NCBI RefSeq assembly: GCF_964213995.1
Contig: NC_135808.1
Coordinates: 31,062,001 to 31,126,000, forward strand
Source of the DNA: Mustelus asterias
Lineage: Eukaryota
Reading direction: 5' to 3'
Length of the DNA: 64,000 nt
Part shown: positions 7,256 through 63,358 of the stretch, piece by piece
Layout: every line of letters starts with the position of its first letter
Numbering within the stretch: the stretch's first letter is position 1
Translations under genes and position numbers: made by a program
Notes under the pieces: model-generated
Seen by the model: only the letters and a program-made list of their open reading frames with translations
The model's database searches: none
Told to the model about the DNA's origin: nothing

Positions 7256-9321
7256 ACCACCATAGGCTGCTGTCCCCTTTAAGGGGGAGAGCTGACTGGT
7301 GGTGATTTAACCTGAGGATTAGCACACCCCAGGCGAGGGGCAAGGATGAGTAGGTGGGCCTTCATGAATACTTGCTGATTTAAAAAATAACAGTTCTAAA
7401 GAATACAGTTGTAAATAGTGCACAAGTACTGAATAACCTGGAAGTGCAGCTGCATCGATCATTGACATTTTGAAGAGTGTTTAGCAAAATATGTGGAATC
7501 TTGGGCTTCAACTACAGCAATTGAATGCAAAAGCCAGGAAGTTAGACTGAACCACAGAGAGGCAACAGCTTTCAAACCCACAACCATTGCCAGCAGGAGA
7601 TAGAGAAACAGATATTTAGGCAGATTTTGGCAAGGTGTAAAAGTAACAGGGTTGTAGTGGTGGGAGATTTTTACTTCCCCTTTATTGACTGGGACTCACT
7701 TAGTGCTAGGGACCTGAATGGGGCAGCGTTTATAAGGAGCATCCAGGAGGGCTTCTTGAAAGAGTATGTGGATAGTCCAACTAGGACTATCATACTGGAC
7801 CTGGTATTGGGGAATGAGCCCGGCCAGGTGGTCGATGTTTCAGTAGGGGAGCAGTTCAGGAACAGTGACCACAATTCAGTAAGCTTTAAGGTACTGATGG
7901 ATAAAGATAAGTGTAGTCCTCAAGTGAAGGTGCTAAATTGGGGGAAGGCTAATTGCAACAATATTAGGCAGGAACTGAAGAATGTTGATTGGGGGCAGAT
8001 GTTTGAGGGCAAATCAGCATCTGGCAGGTGGGAGGCTTTCAAGTGTAAGTTGATAGGTATTCAGGACCAGCACATTCCTGTCAGGATGAAGGATAAGTAT
8101 GGCAAGTTTGGGGAACCTTGGATAACGAGAGATATTGTGAGCCTAGTCAAAGAGAAAAAGGAAGCTTTGTCAAAACTAGGAAGCTGAGAACACACAAAGC
8201 ACGTGTGAAATACAAGGAAAGTAGAAAGAAACTTAAGCAAGGAGTAAGGAGGGCTAAAAGGGGTTATGAAAAAGCATTGACCAGCAGGATGAAGGAAAAT
8301 CCCAAGGCTTTTTATACATGTATAAAGAGCAAGAGGGTAGCCAGGGAGAGGGTTGGCCCACTCAAGGACAATGGAGGGAATCTATGCGTGGAGCCAGAGG
8401 AAATGGGAAAGGTATTAAATGAGTACTTTGCGTCAGTATTCACCAAATAGAATGACTTGGTAGATGATGAATCTGGGATAGGGTGTGTAGATAGTTTGAG
8501 TCATGTTGAGATCAAAAAGGAGGAGGTATTGGGGTTCTTGAGAAACATTAAGGTAGACAAGTCCCCAGGGCCTGATGGGATGTACCCCAGAATACTGAGA
8601 GGGGCAAGGGAGGAAATTGCTGGGGCCTTGAGATAAATCTTTGTATCCTCACTGGCTACAGGGGAGGTCCCAGAGGAGAATAGCTAATGTTGTTCCTTTG
8701 TTTAAGAAGGGTAGCAAGAATAATCCAGGTAATTACAGGCTGGTAAGCCTTGCATCAGTGGTAGGGAAATTATTGGAGAGGATTCCTTCAGACAGGATTC
8801 ATTCCCACTTGGAAATAAGTGGACGTATTAGTGAGAGGCAACATGGTTTTGTGAAGGGGAGGTCGTGACTCACTAACTTGATTGAGTTTTTCGAGGAAGT
8901 GATGAAGATGATTGATGAGGGTAGGGCAGTGGATGTTGGCTACATAGACTTCAGTAAGGCCTTTGACAAAGTCCCTCATGGCAGACTGGTGCAGAAGGTG
9001 AAGTTGCATTGGATCAGAGGTGAGCTGGCAAGGTGGATACAAAACTGGCTCAGTCAAAGAAAACAGAGGGTAGCAATAGAAGGGTGCATTTCGGAATGGA
9101 GGGCTGTGACAAGTGGCGTTCCTCAGGGATCAGTGCTGGGACCTTTGCTGTTTGTAATATATATAAATGATTTGGAGGAAAATGTAAGTGGTTTGATTAG
9201 TAAGTTTGCGGACGACACAAAGGTTGGTAGATTTGCAGATAGTGATGAGGACCATCAGAGGATACAGCAGGATATAGACCAGTTGGAGAATTGGGCGGAG
9301 AGGTGGCAGATGGAGTTTAAT

Positions 9322-36854: not shown

Positions 36855-36860
36855 TTTATT
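36855..36860 (-). promoter_or_regulatory. Candidate polyadenylation signal AATAAA of the TRIM gene
   Basis: tttatt on the plus strand about 37 nt past the stop, at the edge of a SINE tail. Usage unverified. Confidence 0.4.
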
Positions 36861-36896: not shown

Positions 36897-37429
36897 TCAT
36901 ATTACTAAGTGGTGCAACTTAAGAGGCTCGGAATTTGTATCAGCATCACCCATATCAAGAGCAAAAAATGGAAAGAGCTTCTCGATGAATGTGTTAGTGT
37001 AAGTGGCAAGATGAGACATATCATCAGCATTGTAAAAAGACAATTGCCCTCGCTCATAGTCCAGGTAAACTCCGATAGTCGTGGGCTCCGCGATCAATTT
37101 GAGAATCTCATCAGTCGCATATTCATCTCCACCTGTCAACGACAGGGTCCAGTATCCATTTTCAGGGACAGGATCGATTTCACCCTTTCGATTGGCTGAC
37201 TCCGTTGCCACACCAACAACCCAGTCAGTGATGTCCCCCACCTCTACCTCCCAGTAATGTGTTCCCGTTGTGAACCCCTCTGATCCCAAGATGCAAGGGC
37301 ACTCATCGAAACTTTCCGGATTGCAATGAGTCGATACTTCCTCGTCAGTGGACTCCATGCTGGTCAGGTCATCAGATAGGAGAAGCTGAGGGTGTGCTGT
37401 GTCTGGGTCAAAGGTCAGTGGTGCTGGAA
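36897..37429 (-). CDS. TRIM exon 6: PRY-SPRY (B30.2) domain and stop
   Basis: Motifs LTFDPDTAHP, GTHYWEVEV, IGVYLDYERGQLSFYN, LFPFF. Phase-1 acceptor tttcctccaag, with an in-frame alternative AG 6 nt further on. TGA at 36897-36899. Confidence 0.95.
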
Positions 37430-37634
37430 CTTGGAGGAAATAAAAATACTGAAGTTAAGTACTACACACGAACAAATATAAACAATGGTTATTAATTTTT
37501 AGCAGGTCATTCTCATTTAATGGAAAAATGTGCCTTTCCAATTAAAAGCTAATACATGTTCCCTCAGGAAATTCAAGTTGGGTTTAAAATTAGCAGTATC
37601 CTCGCAGTTATAGGCCCCAACAAATTTCAATTGC

Positions 37635-38685
37635 TTAGTAGACAGGAAACAAAGAGTGGGAATAAATAAGTGGCAGGCAGTGACTAGTGGGATCCCACAA
37701 GAATCAGTGCTTGGTCCCTAGCTTTTCACAATATACATCAACGATTTGGATGCAGGAAGCAAAAATAATATTTCGAAGTTTGCTAATGACATGAAACTCG
37801 GTGGGAAGGTGAGTGGTGAGGATGATGTTAAGAGGTTTCAAAGTGATTTAGACAAGCTGAGTGAGTGGGCAAAAACTTGGCAGCTGCAGTGTGATGTAGA
37901 TAAATGTGAAGTTATCCACTTCGGACAGAGAAATAGAATGGAAGAGTATTATTTAAATGGTGATAAATTGGGAAATGTTAATATATAAAGGAACCTGGGT
38001 GTGCTAGTACACCAGTCACTGAAAACAAGCATGCAGGTACAGCAAGCAGTTAGGAAAGCAAATGGTATGTTGGCCTTCATTACAAGAGGACTTGCATGCG
38101 GGAAGCAACTGTACAGGGTCCAGGTGAGACCACACCTGGAGTATTGTGTGCAGTTTTGGTCTCCTTACCTAAGGAAGGATATACTTGCCATAGAGGGAGT
38201 GCAGCGAAGGCTCACCAGACTGATTCCAGGGAGAGCAGAATTGTCATTTGAAGGAAGATTGTGTCAACTGGGTCTGTATTCACAGGAGTTTAGAAGAATG
38301 AGAAGGGATCTAATTAAAACATATAAAATTCTGATAGGGCTGGACAGACTGGATGCTAGGATATTGTTTCCTCTGGCTGGGGTGGTCCAGAACAAGGGGT
38401 TACCGTTGCAGGATGCAAAGTAGATCATTTAGGTCATTGAGGCGAGGAGAAACATCTTCACTCAGGGAGTGGTGAGCCTGTGGAATTCTCTACCACAGAA
38501 GGCTGAGGAGGCCAAATCACTGAATATATTTAAGAAGAATATAGTTAGATTTCTGGAATCTAAGGGTGTCAAGGGATATGGGAGAGCAGGGGAATATAAT
38601 GTTGAAAAAGCAGATCAGCCATGATCATACTGAAAGGCGGAGCAGGCTCAAACGGCTGAGTTCTGCTCCAATCTTCTGTTTCTAA
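37635..38685 (+). mobile_element. CR1 LINE 3' portion in TRIM intron 5
   Basis: RT C-terminal motifs (KCEVIHFG, RPHLEYCVQFWSP). Confidence 0.9.
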
Positions 38686-39143
38686 AAGGACAGAATATTG
38701 AACTGTATTTATAGCAAGTTGCTGATGCCTTATATCCTGTTTCATGTCAGCCCCTCAGGCAGATTTCTTTTGAAATTAAGAGGACAAATTCTGATAGCTT
38801 CAATTTGAATGAAATTTACAGAAATGCGGAAAATCACTTTTCCACAGCTGACTGCAAGAGTTAGAGCCCCTAAAGATAAAGGGATATTGGGAATTGTGAA
38901 AATTAGAATTCTGAACACCCTGTCGTGCTGGTTTGTCCAGACTGCAGTACTAAGTGGGTGATACTCCACAAAACAACTGTGATAAACCCTCCCTAATATT
39001 ACATTCCATTCAAAATCAATGCAGTTGGTATGTATCCGAGCAACATAATCACAGACAGGGTAAGCAGGAAGTTCCTTCATCCTAACTCAAACACATCATA
39101 GCCATTTTACATCAGGTTAGGTAAATGGTAGGTAATGTCTCAC

Positions 39144-39370
39144 CAGGAGAAATGATCCCTTTCATTTCTTTCCATATTGCATACAGCAAAGGACCCCTGA
39201 ACATTCCCGGTATCAGGATGCTGAATCCCACCGTTTCGTCATCATGTTCTTCGGATCCACTCCCACTTTCTTCATCACTGCCCTCACTTTCGTCTTCATC
39301 ATCATCTTCATCATCATCTTCTTCACTTTCCTCATCTCCTTCGTTTCCATTTTCTTCATCCCCAAGACAT
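39144..39370 (-). CDS. TRIM exon 5 (linker with poly-Asp/Glu tract, ending GPLLYAIWKEMKGIISP)
   Basis: 227-nt phase 2-1 exon. Acceptor caattcag, donor G|gtgaga. Carries the conserved pre-PRY F.GP..Y..WKEM motif. Confidence 0.92.
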
Positions 39371-39459: not shown

Positions 39460-39482
39460 CTTTCTGGCAATCGTTTCATTTC
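39460..39482 (-). CDS. TRIM exon 4 (23-nt micro-exon, EMKRLPE-R)
   Basis: Acceptor ctttctttttatatacag, donor AG|gtgtgt. A 23-nt phase 0-2 exon is characteristic of B30.2 TRIM genes and restores the frame. Confidence 0.88.
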
Positions 39483-40793: not shown

Positions 40794-43700
40794 AAAAAGG
40801 AGGAGGAGGCAGTAGTAATAGGGGACTCTATAGTGAGGGGGTCGGACAGGTGATTCTGTGGATGCAGACAAGAAACTCAGATGGTAGTTTGCCTCCCTGG
40901 TGCCAGGATCCGGGATGTTTCTGATCGCGTCCAAGATATCCTGAAGTGGCAGGGAGAAGAGCCAAAGGTCATGGTACATATTGGTACCAATGCCATAGGT
41001 AGGAAAAGGGAAGAGGTCCTGAAAGGAGAATATAGGGAGTTGGGAAGGGAGTTGAGAAGAAGGACCGCAAAAGTAGTAATCTCGGGATTGCTGCCTGTGC
41101 CACGCGACAGTGAGAGTAGGAATGGAATGAGGTGAAGGATAAATGCGTGGCTGAGGGATTGGAGCAGGGGGCAGGGGTTCAGGTTTTTGGATCATTGGGA
41201 CCTCTTTTGGGGCAGGTGTGACCTGTACAATAAGGACGGGTTGCACTTGAATCCCAGGGGAACAAATATCCTGGCGGGGAGGTTTGCTAAGGCTACTGGG
41301 GAGAGTTTAAACTAGTATGGTTGGGGGGTGGGAATCAAATTGAAGTGACTGGGAGAGAGGAGGTTAGCTCACAAATAGAGAAAGCTTGCCGACAGTGTGA
41401 GAGGGAGGATAGGCAGGTGATAGAGAAGGGGAGCATCAGACCGAAGTTTTGAAATGTGTCTATTTTAACATGAACAAAGTGGATGAGCTTAGAGCGTGGA
41501 TCACTACTTGGAAATATGATGTGGTGGCCATTACAGAGACTTGGATGACTCAGGGACAGGACTGGTTACTTCAAGTGCCGGGTTTCAGATGTTTCAGAAG
41601 GGACAGGGAAGGAGGCAAAAGAGGTGGGGGAGTGGCACTGTTGATCAGAGATAGTGTCACGGCTGCAGAAAAGATGGACACCATGGAGGGATTGTCTACG
41701 GAGTCTCTGTGGGTGGAGGTTAGGAACAGGAAGGGGTCAATAGCTTTACTGGGTGTTTTCTATAGGCCGCCCAATCGTAACAGGGATGTTGAGGAGCAGA
41801 TAGGGAAACAGATCCTGGAAAGGTGTAATAATAACAGAATTGTCGTGATGGGAGATTTTAATTTCCCAAATATTGATTGGAATCTCCCTAGAGTAAGGGG
41901 TGTAGATGGGGAGGAGTTTGTTAGGTGTGTTCAGGAGGGTTTCTTGACACAGTATGTAGATAAACCTACAAGAGGAGAGGGTGTACTTGATTTGGTATTG
42001 GGAAATGAACCTGGTCAGGTGTCAGATCTCTCAGTGGGAGAGCATTTTGGAGATAGTGATCATAATTCTATCTCCTTTACAATAGCATTGGAGAGAGATA
42101 GGATCAGACAAGTTAGAAAAGTGTTTAATTGGAGTAAGGGGAATTATGACGCTATCAGGCAGGAAATTGGAGGCTTAAATTGGAAAGAGGTTTTCTCAGG
42201 GAAATGTACGGAAGAAATGTGGCAAATTTTCAGGGAATATTTGTCTGGAGTTCTGCATAGCAACATTCCAATGAGACAGGGAAGTTATGGTAGGTTACAG
42301 GAACCGTGGTATACAAAAGCTGTAATGAATCTAGTCAAGAAGTAAAGAAAAGCTTACAAAAGGTTCAGGGAGCTAGGTAATGTTAGAGATCCAGAAGAGT
42401 ATACGGCTAATAGGAAGGATCTTAAGAAGGAAATTAGGAGAGCCAGAAGGGCTCATGAGAAGGCCTTGGCAGGCAGGATGAAGGAAAACCCCAAGGCATT
42501 CTACAAGTATGTGAAGAGCAAGAGGATAAGACGTGAAAGAATAGGACCTATCAAGTGTGACGGTGAGAAAGTTTGTATGGAACCGGAGGAAATGGCAGAG
42601 GTACTTAATGAATACTTTACTTCAGTATTCACTATGGAAAAGGATCTTGGTGGTTGTCGTGCAAACTTGCAGCGGACTGAAAAGCTTGAGCATGTAGATA
42701 TTAAGAAAGAGGATGTGTTGGAGCTTTTGAAAAGCATCAAGTTAGATAAGTCACCGGGACCGGATGAGATGTACCTCAGGCTACTGTGGGAGGCGAGGGA
42801 AGAGATTGCTGAGCCTCTGGCGATGATCTTTGCATCATCAATGGAGACGGGAGAGGTTCCGGAAGATTGGAGGATTGCGGGTGTTGTTCCTTTATTCAGG
42901 AAAGGAAGTAGAGATAGCCCTGGAAATTATAGACCAGTGAATCTAACCTCAGTGGTTGGTAAGTTGATGGAGAAGATCCTGAGAGGCAGGATTTATGAAC
43001 ATTTGGAGAGGTATAATATGATTAAGAATAGTCAGCATGGCTTTGTCAAAGGCAGATCGTGCCTTACGAGCCTGATTGAATTTTTTGAGGATGTGACTAA
43101 ACACATTGATGAAGGAAGAGCAGTAGATGTAGTATATATGGACTTCAGCAAGGCATTTGATAAGGTGCCCCATGCAAGGCTTATTGAGAAAGTGAGGGGG
43201 CATGGGATCCAAGGAGACATTGCTTTGTGGATCCAGAACTGGCTTGCCCACAGAAGGCAAAGAGTGGTTATAGATGGGTCATATTCTGCATGGAGGTCGG
43301 TCACCAGTGGAGTGCCCCAGGGATCTGTTCTGGGACCCTTACTCTTTGTGATTTTTATCAATGACCTGGATGAGGAAGTGGAGGGATGGGTTAGTAAGTT
43401 TGCTGATGACACAAAGGTTGGAGGTGTTGTGGGTAGTGTGGAGGGATGTCAGAAGTTGCAGCGAGACATTGATAGGATGCAAGACTGGGCGGAGAAATGG
43501 CAGATGGAATTCAACCCAGATAAGTGTGAGGTGGTTCATTTTGGCAGGTCAAATAGGATGGTGGAATATAATATTAATGGTAGGACTCTTGGCAGTGTGG
43601 AAGATCAGAAGGATCTTGGGGTCCGAGTTCATAGGACGCTCAAAGCAGCTGTGCAGGTTGAGGCTGTGGTTAAGAAGGCGTATGGTGTACTGGCCTTCAT

Positions 43701-44310
43701 CAATCGAGGAATTGAGTTTAGGAGTCGTGAGATAATGTTGCAGCTATATAGGACCCTGGTCAGACCCCACTTGGAGAACTGTGCTCAGTTCTGGTCGTCT
43801 CATTACAGGAATGATGTGGAAGCCATAGAAAGGGTGCAGAGGAGATGTACAAGGATGTTGCCTGGGTTGAGGAGCATGCCTTATGAGGATAGGTTGAGTG
43901 AGCTCGGCCTTTTCTCCTTGGAGAGACGAAGGATGAGGGGTGACCTGATAGAGGTGTATAAGATGTTGAGAGGTATTGATCGAGTGGACAGTCAAAGGCT
44001 TTTTCCTAGGGCTGAAATGGTTGCCACAAGAGGACACAGGTTTAAGTTGCTGGGGAGTAGGTACAGAGGAGATGTCAGGGGTAAGTTTTTCACTCAGAGG
44101 GTGGTGGGTGCGTGGAATGGGCTGCCAGCAACAGTGGTGGAGGCGGATTCGATAGGGTCTTTTAAGAGACTTTTAGATAAGTACATGGAACTTAGTAAGA
44201 TAGAGGGTTATAGGTAAGCCTAATAATCGCTAAGGTAGGACATGTTCGGCTCAACTTTGTGGGCTGAAAGGGCTTTATTGTGCTGTACTTTTTCTTTGTT
44301 CTATGTTTCT
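40794..44310 (+). mobile_element. Near full-length CR1/HER1-like LINE (ORF1 esterase fragment, ORF2 APE endonuclease + RT) in TRIM intron 3
   Basis: AVVIGDSIVRG esterase motif. APE ORF 41449-42345 and RT ORF 42466-44217 (QGSVLGP, FADD) are in the same frame, split by one TAA. Inserted within a minus-strand SINE fragment. Confidence 0.95.
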
Positions 44311-45422: not shown

Positions 45423-47288
45423 AGGGGCTTCGGAGAGCTAGGAGGGGACATGAGAAGTCCTTGGCGGGTCGGATCAAGGAAAACCCCAAGGCTTTTTACT
45501 CTTATGTGAGGAATAAAAGAATGACCAGGGTGAGGTTAGGGCCGGTCAAGGACAGTAGTGGGAACTTGTGTATGGAGTCAGTAGAGATAGGCGAGGTGAT
45601 GAATGAATACTTTTCTTCAGTGTTCACCAAGGAGAGGGGCTATGTTTTTGAGGAAGAGAAGGTGTTACAGGCTAGTAGGCTGGAGGAAATAGATGTTCGG
45701 AGGGAGGATGTACTGGCAGTTTTGAATAAACTGAAGGTCGATAAGTCCCCTGGGCCTGATTAAATATATCCTAGGATTCTTTGGGAGGCAAGGGATGAGA
45801 TTGCAGAGCCTTTGGCTTTGATCTTTGGGTCTTCACTGTCCACGGGGATGGTGCCAGAGGACTGGAGAGTGGCGAATGTTGTTCCTCTGTTTAAGAAAGG
45901 GAATAGAAATGACCCTGGTAATTATAGACCGGTTAGTCTTACTTCGGTGGTTGGCAAATTGATGGAAAAAGTCCTTAGGGATGGGATTTACGACCATTTA
46001 GAAAGATGCGGATTAATCCGGGATAGTCAGCACGGATTCGTAAAGGGCAAGTCGTGCCTCACAAATTTGATTGAATTTTTTGAGGAGGTAACTAAGTGTG
46101 TTGATGAAGATAGGGCAGTTGATGTCATATACATGGATTTTAGTAAGGCGTTTGATAAGGTCCCCCATGGTCGGCTTATGATGAAAGTAAGGAGGTGTGG
46201 GATAGAGGGAAAGTTGGCCGATTGGATAGGTAACTGGCTATCTGATCGAAGACAGAGGGTGGTGGTGGATGGAAAATTTTCAGACTGGAGGCAGGTTGCT
46301 CGCAGAGTGCTACAGGGATCAGTGCTTGGTCCTCTGCTCTTTGTGATTTTTATTAATGACTTAGAGGAGGGGGCTGAAGGGTGGATCAGTAAATTTGCTG
46401 ATGACACCAAGATTGGTGAAGTAGTGGAAGAGGTGGAGGGCTGTTGTAGGCTGCAAAGAGACATAGATAAGATGCAAAGCTGGGCTGAAAAATGGCAAAT
46501 GGAGTTTAACCCTGATAAATGTGAGGTGATTCATTTTGGTAGGACTAATTTAAATGTGGATTACAGGGTCAAAGGTAGGGTTCTGAAGACTGTGGAGGAA
46601 CAGAGAGATCTTGGGGTCCATATCCACAGATCTCTAAAGGTTGCCACTCAAGTGGATAGAGCTGTGAAGAAGGCCTGTAGTGTGTTAGCTTTTATTAACA
46701 GGGGGTTGGAGTTTAAGAGCCATCGGGTTATGCTGCAACTCTACAGCACCTTGGTGAGATCACATTTGGAATATTGTGTGCAGTTCTGGTCACCTCACTA
46801 TAAGAAGGATGTGGAAGCGCTGGAAAGAGTGCAGAGGGATTTACCAGGATGCTGCCTGGTTTGGAGGGTAGGTCTTATGAGGAAGCTAGGGCTGTTCTCT
46901 CTGGAGTGGAGAAGGCTGAGGGGAGACTTAATAGAGGTTTATAAAATGATGAAGGGGATAGAAAGAGTGAACGTTCAAAGACTATTTCCTCGGGTGGATG
47001 GAGCTATTACAAGGGGGCATAACTATTGGGTTCATGGTGGGAGATATAGGAAGGATATTAGAGGTAGGTTCTTTACACAGAGAGTGGTTGGGGTGTGGAA
47101 TGGACTGCCTGCAGTGATAGTGGAGTCAGACACTTTAGGAACATTTAAGCAGTTATTGGATAGGCACATGGAGCACACCAGGATGATAGGGAGTGGGATA
47201 GCTTGATCTTGGTTTCAGATAAAGCTCGGCACAACATCGTGGGCCGAAGGGCCTGTTCTGTGCTGTACTGTTCTATGTTCTATGTTCT
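45423..47288 (+). mobile_element. 5'-truncated CR1 LINE (RT region and 3' end)
   Basis: ORFs 45461..45763 and 45812..47206 with RT motifs; (tgttcta)n tail. Confidence 0.95.
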
Positions 47289-48638: not shown

Positions 48639-48872
48639 CTTGAGAAAAATGATGCTGTCTTCCTGGTGAATGACAGCCTGAAGGTTCGATATATCCTCTT
48701 TGAGGGACTTTAATTCTTCATCAATTGCTGCTAAGTTATTCTCCATTAATTGAAAATCTTCCCCTCGTTGATCCTTGAGTTTTTCAATCAAGCTTGTTTC
48801 TTTGTCTTGAAGATATTGACGGATTTTGGCAAATTGTTCAGAGATGTGTTGCTCCAGGGATCCTGTGAGTTC
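48639..48872 (-). CDS. TRIM exon 3 (coiled coil, ELTGSLEQHISEQFAKIRQYL...QEDSIIFLK)
   Basis: 234-nt phase 0-0 exon. Acceptor caacttag, donor AAG|gtaaca. Overlaps ORF 48570..48791. Confidence 0.92.
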
Positions 48873-49066: not shown

Positions 49067-49162
49067 ATCCAGTTCTGCAATCTTCTCCTTCTGGCGATGT
49101 TTCTGCTCATTTTTATATTTCTCTTTGTCCTCCAAAGAATTCAAAGAGGATTTCAACTGGAT
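49067..49162 (-). CDS. TRIM exon 2 (coiled coil, IQLKSSLNSLEDKEKYKNEQKHRQKEKIAELD)
   Basis: 96-nt phase 0-0 exon, the typical size for this TRIM exon. Acceptor cctttgtcag, donor gtaagt, open frame. Confidence 0.92.
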
Positions 49163-62906: not shown

Positions 62907-63320
62907 CTTGTACTTTCTCACCGCGTCCGCCACGGGCAGGAAGCTGTGTCCTGAGTGTGAGGGTGAATCTCGACAAATGACACAGATCAGAGTCTGATCG
63001 TCCTCACAGAAGAGTTTCAGCTTCTCATCGTGTTCCTCGCAGTGAGAGCCCACCGCCTGTGGCGCCGGGTTCACTTCCAACTGTCTGGCTTTCTCACAGA
63101 GATTGGCCAACACCCTGGCATTTTTAAACGACCTCTGGGGGAAAACTGCCCGGCATTCCGGGCAGGAAAACTTCTTCCTCCGGCTTTCCCAACATTTCTC
63201 TATACAGGATTTACAGAAGTTGTGATCACAGTCCAGCCGCACCGGCTCCACAAACAGAGCCAGGCAGATGGAGCAGGTTAAATCCTCACTCAGAGTTAAG
63301 ACCTGCTTGTTAGCAGCCAT
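62907..63320 (-). CDS. TRIM family E3 ligase (RING-Bbox-CC-B30.2), coding exon 1: RING + B-box2
   Basis: ATG at 63320 in aacATGG context (the ORF-track start at 63341 is GTG). C3HC4 RING CSIC..CDHNFCKSC..CPEC and B-box CEEH..C..C..C..H..H. 414 nt, phase-0 donor AAG|gtaaga. Confidence 0.95.
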
Positions 63321-63343: not shown

Positions 63344-63358
63344 TTTCACTTTCATTTC
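63344..63358 (-). promoter_or_regulatory. ISRE/IRF element GAAA-T-GAAA-GT-GAAA upstream of the TRIM ATG
   Basis: Plus strand reads TTTCACTTTCATTTC, 24-38 nt upstream of the ATG. Matches the GAAAN(1-2)GAAA consensus twice. Confidence 0.7.

What the first reader, a model, noticed from the sequence alone, without database searches (positions are those of the whole stretch)
36897..39370. TRIM with a polyanionic C-terminal half: acidic linker plus acidic B30.2
Seen: exon 5 encodes a 42-aa tract with 28 D/E and no K/R. The last exon has about 34 D/E versus 6 K/R by hand count, and normally basic positions are lost (PESFD for PERFD). Known: B30.2 is the target-binding module of antiviral TRIMs. Inference: a nucleic-acid-mimic surface for binding basic targets such as viral nucleocapsids or histones, with serines in acidic CK2-type contexts adding charge.
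Basis: partly seen in the sequence, partly recalled or inferred. Interest (0 to 1): 0.7.

Follow-up and report, generated by a model that had tools for sequence, protein, structure and literature searches.

The report
Polyanionic shark TRIM sharing its B-box
This intact, spliced shark ubiquitin-ligase (TRIM) gene between two MHC class I-like genes has a far more negatively charged target-binding half than its relatives and keeps one assembly domain nearly identical to a partner gene's, so it likely works with that partner as an interferon-induced trap for positively charged, probably viral, proteins, though no target has been tested.

Summary
Observation confirmed. The six-exon minus-strand gene equals RefSeq XP_078073756.1 (Mustelus asterias, A33/TRIM69-like). 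Exon 5 has 28 D/E and 0 K/R in 42 aa, and two contigs splice it to exon 6. The B30.2 has 34 D/E and 6 K/R (net -28), against -2.4 ± 4.0 (minimum -13) in 132 paralogous exons. The trait marks a single-copy orthogroup in eight galeomorph sharks. Every ortholog keeps the acidic linker, but B30.2 charge runs from -8 to -28, and the catshark V1 loop is basic. Acidic linkers also occur in some neighbouring paralogs.

New here: (1) MHC class I-like genes flank the gene; (2) an ISRE-like motif lies just before the ATG, as in 25 of 30 family loci; (3) the late RING and B-box were homogenised with a partner paralog in four shark lineages (AU p=0.001).

Best reading: a likely interferon-induced E3 that would capture a basic ligand electrostatically and co-assemble with its partner, like TRIM5/TRIM34. 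Target, binding and nucleic-acid mimicry are untested. It is a new variant of class IV TRIMs. The scan's earlier notes held nothing on it.

The parts
63344..63358 (-). ISRE/IRF-type triple GAAA element, 24-38 bp before the ATG
   Evidence: Only match in the window, 0.01 expected (pattern chosen after seeing the sequence). The looser GAAA-N1-2-GAAA is at the same place in 25 of 30 family loci, with 0 hits in the 1250 bp further upstream of each. Motif consensus recalled.
62907..63320 (-). Exon 1: RING (C3HC4, all ligands present, Arg57 at the linchpin position) and B-box2
   Evidence: Pfam zf-C3HC4_4 and zf-B_box; ligand list; linchpin concept from PMC13591260 passages
62907..63175 (-). Gene-conversion tract (late RING + B-box) shared with two partner paralogs about 1 Mb away
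   Evidence: 2 of 270 nt and 1 of 37 fourfold sites differ from L153/L154, against 176 of 525 nt and 22 of 47 fourfold sites in the B30.2 exon; flanks do not align
49067..49162 (-). Exon 2 (96 bp), coiled coil
   Evidence: helix 130-239 in the model
48639..48872 (-). Exon 3 (234 bp), coiled coil
39460..39482 (-). Exon 4 (23 bp), part of helix 243-257
   Evidence: covered in the exon-only depth pattern of X4 and X5
39144..39370 (-). Exon 5 (227 bp): acidic L2 linker followed by helix 317-325
   Evidence: Spliced to exon 6 in contigs X4#16 and X5#23; only hit in the genome for this exon
39235..39360 (-). 42-aa acidic tract, predicted disordered; 24 of 42 codons are GAA or GAT
   Evidence: low pLDDT over 261-320; short GAT/GAA repeat at 39289-39325
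36897..37429 (-). Exon 6: acidic PRY-SPRY (B30.2) domain, net -28
   Evidence: Pfam PRY and SPRY; fold match to TRIM21, BTN3A1 and TRIM72
36855..36860 (-). AATAAA, candidate polyadenylation signal
   Evidence: use not shown
38200..38309 (-). Possible cryptic exon in an intron-5 repeat that would end the protein before the B30.2
   Evidence: One contig of depth 2.9 in run X1 (organism A) joins the exon 5 donor to it; AG acceptor present; stop after 6 codons. Weak.

Best explanation
This is an intact, spliced class IV TRIM (RING-B-box-coiled coil-B30.2) of the shark A33/TRIM69-like expansion, with an acidic linker and an acidic B30.2 kept across galeomorph sharks; it is likely interferon-induced, would likely capture a positively charged cytosolic ligand, most plausibly a viral capsid or nucleoprotein, and would likely co-assemble through its shared B-box with a partner TRIM to ubiquitinate the complex. 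Shown: gene structure, splicing, charge, orthogroup, MHC-I neighbourhood, ISRE-like motif, intact RING ligands, and exon-1 homogenisation with a partner paralog. Inferred: (1) IRF binding induces it; (2) it forms the usual antiparallel dimer, about -118 net, with both tracts looping off the coiled coil near the two B30.2 domains; (3) the acidic loop rim plus the tracts give avid, low-specificity binding to a basic surface; (4) identical B-boxes let it enter one lattice with the partner, whose less acidic B30.2 could add specificity; (5) clustering activates the RINGs.
For: Charge outlier at about 6 sd among 132 paralogs. Whole-protein net charge is -48 to -70 in the 11 orthogroup records of 440-560 aa, against a median of -7 among all 156 such proteins. 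Orthogroup majority versus paralog majority: 18 columns shift toward acid and 4 toward basic (p=0.004). The shared shifts (E374, D400, D433, E434, D438, E439, D493, E499; loss of K398, R407, K449) lie mostly in loops. GC at fourfold sites is 0.34 against 0.60 ± 0.10 in paralogs, so GC-biased conversion does not explain the acid codons. ISRE-like motif. MHC-I-like genes lie about 51 kb beyond exon 6 and 27 kb before exon 1. B-box identity to a partner paralog is 96-100% in four lineages against 83-87% between orthologs of different lineages. The AU test rejects ortholog monophyly for aa 49-138 (p=0.00135), while coiled coil plus B30.2 give 100/99 support. Precedents, passages read: TRIM26 has an acidic PRYSPRY insertion (PMC12355088) and its PRYSPRY binds SOX2 (PMC8566473); TRIM34 needs TRIM5alpha and is proposed to hetero-multimerise (PMC10464172); a reptile TRIM targets flavivirus capsid (10.1101/2025.06.23.661133).
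Against: No ligand, binding, induction or ligase assay exists. B30.2 net charge is only -8 and -11 in two catsharks, whose V1 is basic (+5, +3). Terminal branches show no consistent drift to acid: Mustelus 6 vs 3, catshark 4 vs 12, Cetorhinus 0 vs 5. The 18-vs-4 test uses paralog majority as a stand-in for the ancestor, and the clade was chosen for being acidic. Linker and B30.2 charge are uncorrelated outside the orthogroup (rho 0.07, p=0.45, n=135). The linker is built of slippage-prone GAA/GAT codons. The ISRE is family-wide, and the 30 loci are not independent. Gene conversion needs no selection, and the partners do not form one clade by coiled coil plus B30.2. No partner was found for Heterodontus. 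No surface electrostatics could be computed; loop names are recalled.
Confidence: 0.4

Rival explanations
1. The charge is regulatory, not a ligand trap. It would repel RNA, membranes or microtubules, limit lattice growth when the protein joins its partner through the shared B-box, or act as a degron, making this a tuner or brake of the partner TRIM.
For: Total charge is better conserved than any single B30.2 loop. TRIM52's D/E loop is a destabilising region (PMC6536530 passages). Basic surfaces are how TRIM72 binds membranes and TRIM25 binds RNA (PMC12355088, PMC11445558 passages). Negative regulation among TRIM pairs is tabulated in PMC13591260.
Against: The shared acidic changes sit at fixed loop positions in all five lineages rather than at random. 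RING ligands and the linchpin Arg are intact.
Confidence: 0.25
2. The ligand is a basic host protein (a histone, an HMG-box or IRF-type factor, or a ribosomal protein), as with TRIM26.
For: A single-copy orthogroup with low GC4 suggests a stable job outside the fast-turnover array. TRIM26's PRYSPRY binds the N-terminal 123 aa of SOX2 (PMC8566473 passages).
Against: B30.2 identity between orders is only 60-75%, V1 flips sign, and bamboo sharks delete part of it; that is fast for a conserved host ligand such as a histone. The only basic run (RRKK, aa 48-51) is absent from the orthologs.
Confidence: 0.15
3. The acidity has no function of its own. GAA/GAT slippage lengthened a tolerant linker, the B30.2 drifted under relaxed constraint, and exon-1 conversion is a by-product of residual homology.
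For: Linker length is 66-93 aa in orthologs and up to 193 aa with other repeat units in paralogs. Tandem repeat at 39289-39325. Long B30.2 branches. Conversion is confined to the one exon that still aligns closely.
Against: Slippage cannot acidify the folded domain. Eight species keep shared acidic columns and an intact frame. The transcript is spliced. The same B-box pairing recurs in four lineages.
Confidence: 0.2

Closest known systems
Shark A33/NF7/TRIM69-like class IV TRIM expansion (PMC7677710, passage read)
   Same: RBCC-B30.2 architecture, about 150 B30.2 exons in this genome, on the MHC class I chromosome; RefSeq names it zinc-binding protein A33-like
   Different: Single-copy exon 5 and B30.2 type, exon 5 longer than in most paralogs, B30.2 net -28 against about -2
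Human TRIM26 (PMC12355088, PMC8566473, passages read)
   Same: MHC-region class IV TRIM (abstract of PMC8222901) with a strongly acidic C-terminal part; its PRYSPRY binds a DNA-binding protein
   Different: TRIM26's acid is an insertion inside the PRYSPRY. Here it is in the L2 linker plus point changes in a B30.2 of normal length. Orthology was not tested.
TRIM5alpha/TRIM34 pair (PMC10464172, PMC13591260, passages read)
   Same: Paralog pair proposed to co-assemble, with B-box2 driving higher-order assembly
   Different: No homogenised B-box or polyanionic partner appears in the passages read; co-assembly here is only inferred
Human TRIM52 (PMC6536530, passages read)
   Same: Long disordered D/E-rich insertion in a TRIM
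   Different: Its insertion is in RING loop 2 and acts as a destabilising region; different position and lineage
Reptile harbiTRIM cluster (bioRxiv 10.1101/2025.06.23.661133, parts 1-2 of 3 read)
   Same: Interferon-induced class IV TRIMs in a recombining tandem cluster of a non-mammalian vertebrate; one targets a viral capsid
   Different: Recombination there is widespread and includes the PRY-SPRY; no charge mechanism appears in the parts read

Membership tests
Class IV TRIM (RBCC + PRY-SPRY) | N-terminal C3HC4 RING with all zinc ligands | tested here: met
   (C16, C19, C31, H33, C36, C39, C53, C56)
Class IV TRIM (RBCC + PRY-SPRY) | B-box2 followed by a long coiled coil | tested here: met
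   Pfam zf-B_box; helix 130-239 in the model
Class IV TRIM (RBCC + PRY-SPRY) | C-terminal PRY-SPRY beta-sandwich | tested here: met
   (TM-score 0.91 to the TRIM21 PRYSPRY chain 2iwg_B, normalised by target)
Class IV TRIM (RBCC + PRY-SPRY) | E3 ligase activity | not testable with these tools
   Only the residues were checked
Shark A33/TRIM69-like expansion | Closest relatives are chondrichthyan A33-like TRIMs in arrays on the MHC chromosome | tested here: met
Shark A33/TRIM69-like expansion | Orthology to mammalian TRIM69 | not tested
   No mammalian TRIM69 in my trees; the label comes from database names and PMC7677710
Antiviral interferon-stimulated TRIM | ISRE/IRF element near the gene start | tested here: met
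   motif only
Antiviral interferon-stimulated TRIM | Induction by interferon and restriction of a virus | not testable with these tools
   no data
Antiviral interferon-stimulated TRIM | Positive selection in the B30.2 variable loops | tested here: inconclusive
   No ortholog DNA, so no dN/dS; protein-level V1 and V2 turnover only
Nucleic-acid-mimic proteins | Acidic surface with phosphate-like spacing that competes with DNA or RNA for a binding protein | not testable with these tools
TRIM26-like acidic PRYSPRY | Large acidic insertion between strands 4 and 5 | tested here: not met
   The B30.2 is 177 aa, slightly shorter than the usual 181, with no insertion

The most novel reading that the evidence does not exclude
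Galeomorph sharks keep a two-gene antiviral module in the MHC. A polyanionic TRIM acts as a broad electrostatic sensor of basic viral nucleocapsids, and a partner TRIM is held assembly-compatible with it by repeated, selected gene conversion of the RING-B-box exon, so that mixed lattices combine charge-based avidity with loop-based specificity.
Probability: 0.2. Interest if true: 0.75.

Novelty: new variant of a known kind. Interest (0 to 1): 0.45.

Why it matters
If true, it adds recognition by bulk charge to TRIM5-type restriction, which is usually explained by loop shape. It would also show that concerted evolution of one exon can reveal which TRIM paralogs work as pairs inside large unannotated arrays, a test that can be run on fish, reptile and shark clusters. 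Even if the mechanism fails, it singles out one stable orthogroup among about 150 shark B30.2 exons for study.

Tried and rejected
Structure of three copies of the B-box (aa 88-150): no answer, score 0.01, no verdict either way. Run search: no RNA holder listed on record; the spliced contigs are the evidence used. Orthologs in squalomorph sharks, rays, chimaera, white, whale or zebra shark: none among the hits of three word-indexed searches and one representative search; this is weak evidence of absence. GC-biased conversion as the cause of acid codons: rejected. Mustelus-specific acceleration toward acid: not supported, 6 vs 3. General coupling of linker and B30.2 charge: not supported. Assembly chimera as the cause of the shared exon 1: unlikely, since the flanks differ and the pattern recurs in four lineages. 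dN/dS was not done: no ortholog DNA, and the 20 differences of the X1 contig were not listed. The B30.2 tree is the quick search; the careful one did not finish. Literature: ten searches listed no paper on an acidic shark TRIM or on B-box homogenisation in shark TRIMs; most subscription papers are not covered. The 12 of 13 places shown for PMC8455134 were unrelated uses of 'trim'. Figure S12 of PMC7677710 was not seen and may bear on the family tree. Earlier scan notes held nothing on this gene.

Full report
1. Observation. The finding's coordinates span exons 5 and 6 of a six-exon minus-strand TRIM (E1 63320-62907, E2 49162-49067, E3 48872-48639, E4 39482-39460, E5 39370-39144, E6 37429-36897). 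The model translates exactly to P0002, RefSeq XP_078073756.1 of Mustelus asterias, 508 aa. Pfam finds RING, B-box, PRY and SPRY. The tract has 28 D/E and 0 K/R in 42 aa; the B30.2 has 34 D/E and 6 K/R. One contig each from runs X4 and X5 joins base 39144 to 37429, with depth on exons only outside the intronic repeat, while X2 covers the intron (two samples, one study, library type not on record). The AlphaFold2 model (mean pLDDT 80.8) has a well-formed B30.2 and a low-confidence stretch over about 261-320, between helices 243-257 and 317-325, which is the L2 linker position.

2. How unusual. Of 150 B30.2 loci fetched from this genome, 133 had an intact frame. The other 132 have net charge -2.4 ± 4.0 and a minimum of -13, against -28 here. 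Among 229 domains from 212 database proteins, nothing outside the orthogroup is below -14. Among 218 further domains from 178 proteins the minimum is -15. The linker is less singular: of 146 measurable linkers (of 229), 13 are at -20 or lower, 11 of them orthogroup records, and 12 of 135 outside it are at -8 or lower.

3. Evolution of the charge. Mustelus, two Scyliorhinus, Cetorhinus, Heterodontus, two Chiloscyllium and Hemiscyllium proteins form one B30.2 clade (SH-aLRT 100, quick tree of 76 selected rows). The seven full-length ones are 100/99 on coiled coil plus B30.2 (19 rows). Exon 5 has one hit in this genome. All carry an acidic linker of 66-93 aa. B30.2 net charge is -28, -8, -11, -15, -21, -26, -26 and -28. 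Whole-protein charge is -48 to -70 against a median of -7. Most acidification is shared: 18 columns toward acid against 4 toward basic, relative to paralog majority (p=0.004, with ascertainment bias), mainly in loops. V1 is labile: -6 in Mustelus, +5 and +3 in catsharks, partly deleted in bamboo sharks, which instead acidify V2 (loop names recalled). Low GC at fourfold sites (0.34 against 0.60) argues against GC-biased conversion.

4. Setting. All 140 MHC class I hits lie on the same contig, C8. The nearest are about 51 kb beyond exon 6 and 27 kb before exon 1, each with open alpha1-, alpha2- and alpha3-like frames. A passage of PMC7677710 reports a TRIM69-family expansion in cartilaginous fishes, with 13 copies on bamboo shark Chr37, in its section on MHC-related genes. 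GAAATGAAAGTGAAA lies at 63358-63344 (pattern chosen after seeing it). The looser GAAA-N1-2-GAAA recurs 33-52 bp before the ATG in 25 of 30 exon-1 loci, with none in the 1250 bp further upstream of each (many loci are recent duplicates). Zebrafish btr and ftr TRIMs include interferon-stimulated genes (bioRxiv 10.1101/693333 passages).

5. Exon 1 is 93% identical in protein to two paralogs about 1 Mb away; the next best is 64%. Over codons 49-138, 2 of 270 nt and 1 of 37 fourfold sites differ. In the B30.2 exon of the same genes, 176 of 525 nt and 22 of 47 fourfold sites differ, and the flanks do not align. The pattern recurs: B-box identity is 96% for S. torazame P0201 with S. canicula P0032, 100% for Cetorhinus P0203 with Carcharodon P0024, and 98% for C. 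punctatum P0205 with P0029, against 83-87% between orthologs of different lineages; Heterodontus has no partner in the set. Holding the seven acidic orthologs together over aa 49-138 is rejected (AU p=0.00135). The partners mostly have moderately acidic linkers and B30.2s but do not form one clade by coiled coil plus B30.2, so the direction of conversion is open.

6. Mechanism. I commit, at 0.4, to an interferon-induced E3 that captures a basic ligand, most plausibly viral, by charge, and co-assembles with the partner through identical B-boxes. Shown: sections 1-5. Inferred: induction, dimer geometry, ligand, co-assembly and ligase activity. Precedents come from passages of PMC12355088 (loop electrostatics vary; TRIM26 acidic insertion; basic TRIM72 surface), PMC8566473, PMC10464172, PMC13591260, PMC11445558 and PMC6536530, and from parts 1-2 of 3 of bioRxiv 10.1101/2025.06.23.661133. 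Rivals: regulatory charge (brake, repulsion or degron; 0.25), neutral slippage and drift (0.2), basic host ligand (0.15). The strongest points against the main reading are the basic catshark V1, the lack of any binding data, and that conversion needs no selection.

7. Verdict. The gene is an annotated member of a known class. The conserved polyanionic half and the recurrent B-box homogenisation were not found in ten literature searches. New variant of a known kind; interest 0.45.

Noticed in passing
window 37171-37172: One X4 contig (depth 12) reads two adjacent changes that turn Pro418 into Asp in the V2 loop, a possible allele adding another acidic residue; X1, X2 and X5 match the window.
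   Followed up: partly
window 38200-38309: Possible cryptic exon in an antisense LINE-like repeat of intron 5 (repeat type recalled), joined to exon 5 in one low-depth X1 contig; it would give a TRIM without a B30.2.
   Followed up: partly
window 41413-44217, 45764-47206, 7546-8187: LINE endonuclease and reverse-transcriptase frames on the plus strand; the first two lie inside intron 3.
   Followed up: no
L184 and L185 (G000:C8:31146000-31155999 and 31042000-31051999): Two divergent MHC class I-like genes flanking the TRIM; lineage not determined.
   Followed up: partly
P0032 (Scyliorhinus canicula), P0026 and P0038 (Heptranchias perlo): Paralogs whose L2 linkers expanded as tandem acidic repeats with other units, up to 193 aa and net -77.
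   Followed up: no
L152-L181, 33-52 bp before the ATG: The ISRE-like element is a family-wide feature; in some database models it is translated as a probably spurious N-terminal extension (P0024, P0033).
   Followed up: partly
P0011, P0013 (isoform X2) and P0200: Database isoforms of the orthologs skip exon 2 (part of the coiled coil) or end inside the B30.2; all aligned isoforms keep exon 5.
   Followed up: no
P0148 (Protopterus annectens): A lungfish A33-like TRIM also has a strongly acidic stretch before a near-neutral B30.2, possibly an independent case.
   Followed up: no
L186, plus strand: Long open frames (815 and 375 aa) upstream of the gene, probably mobile-element derived; not identified.
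   Followed up: no
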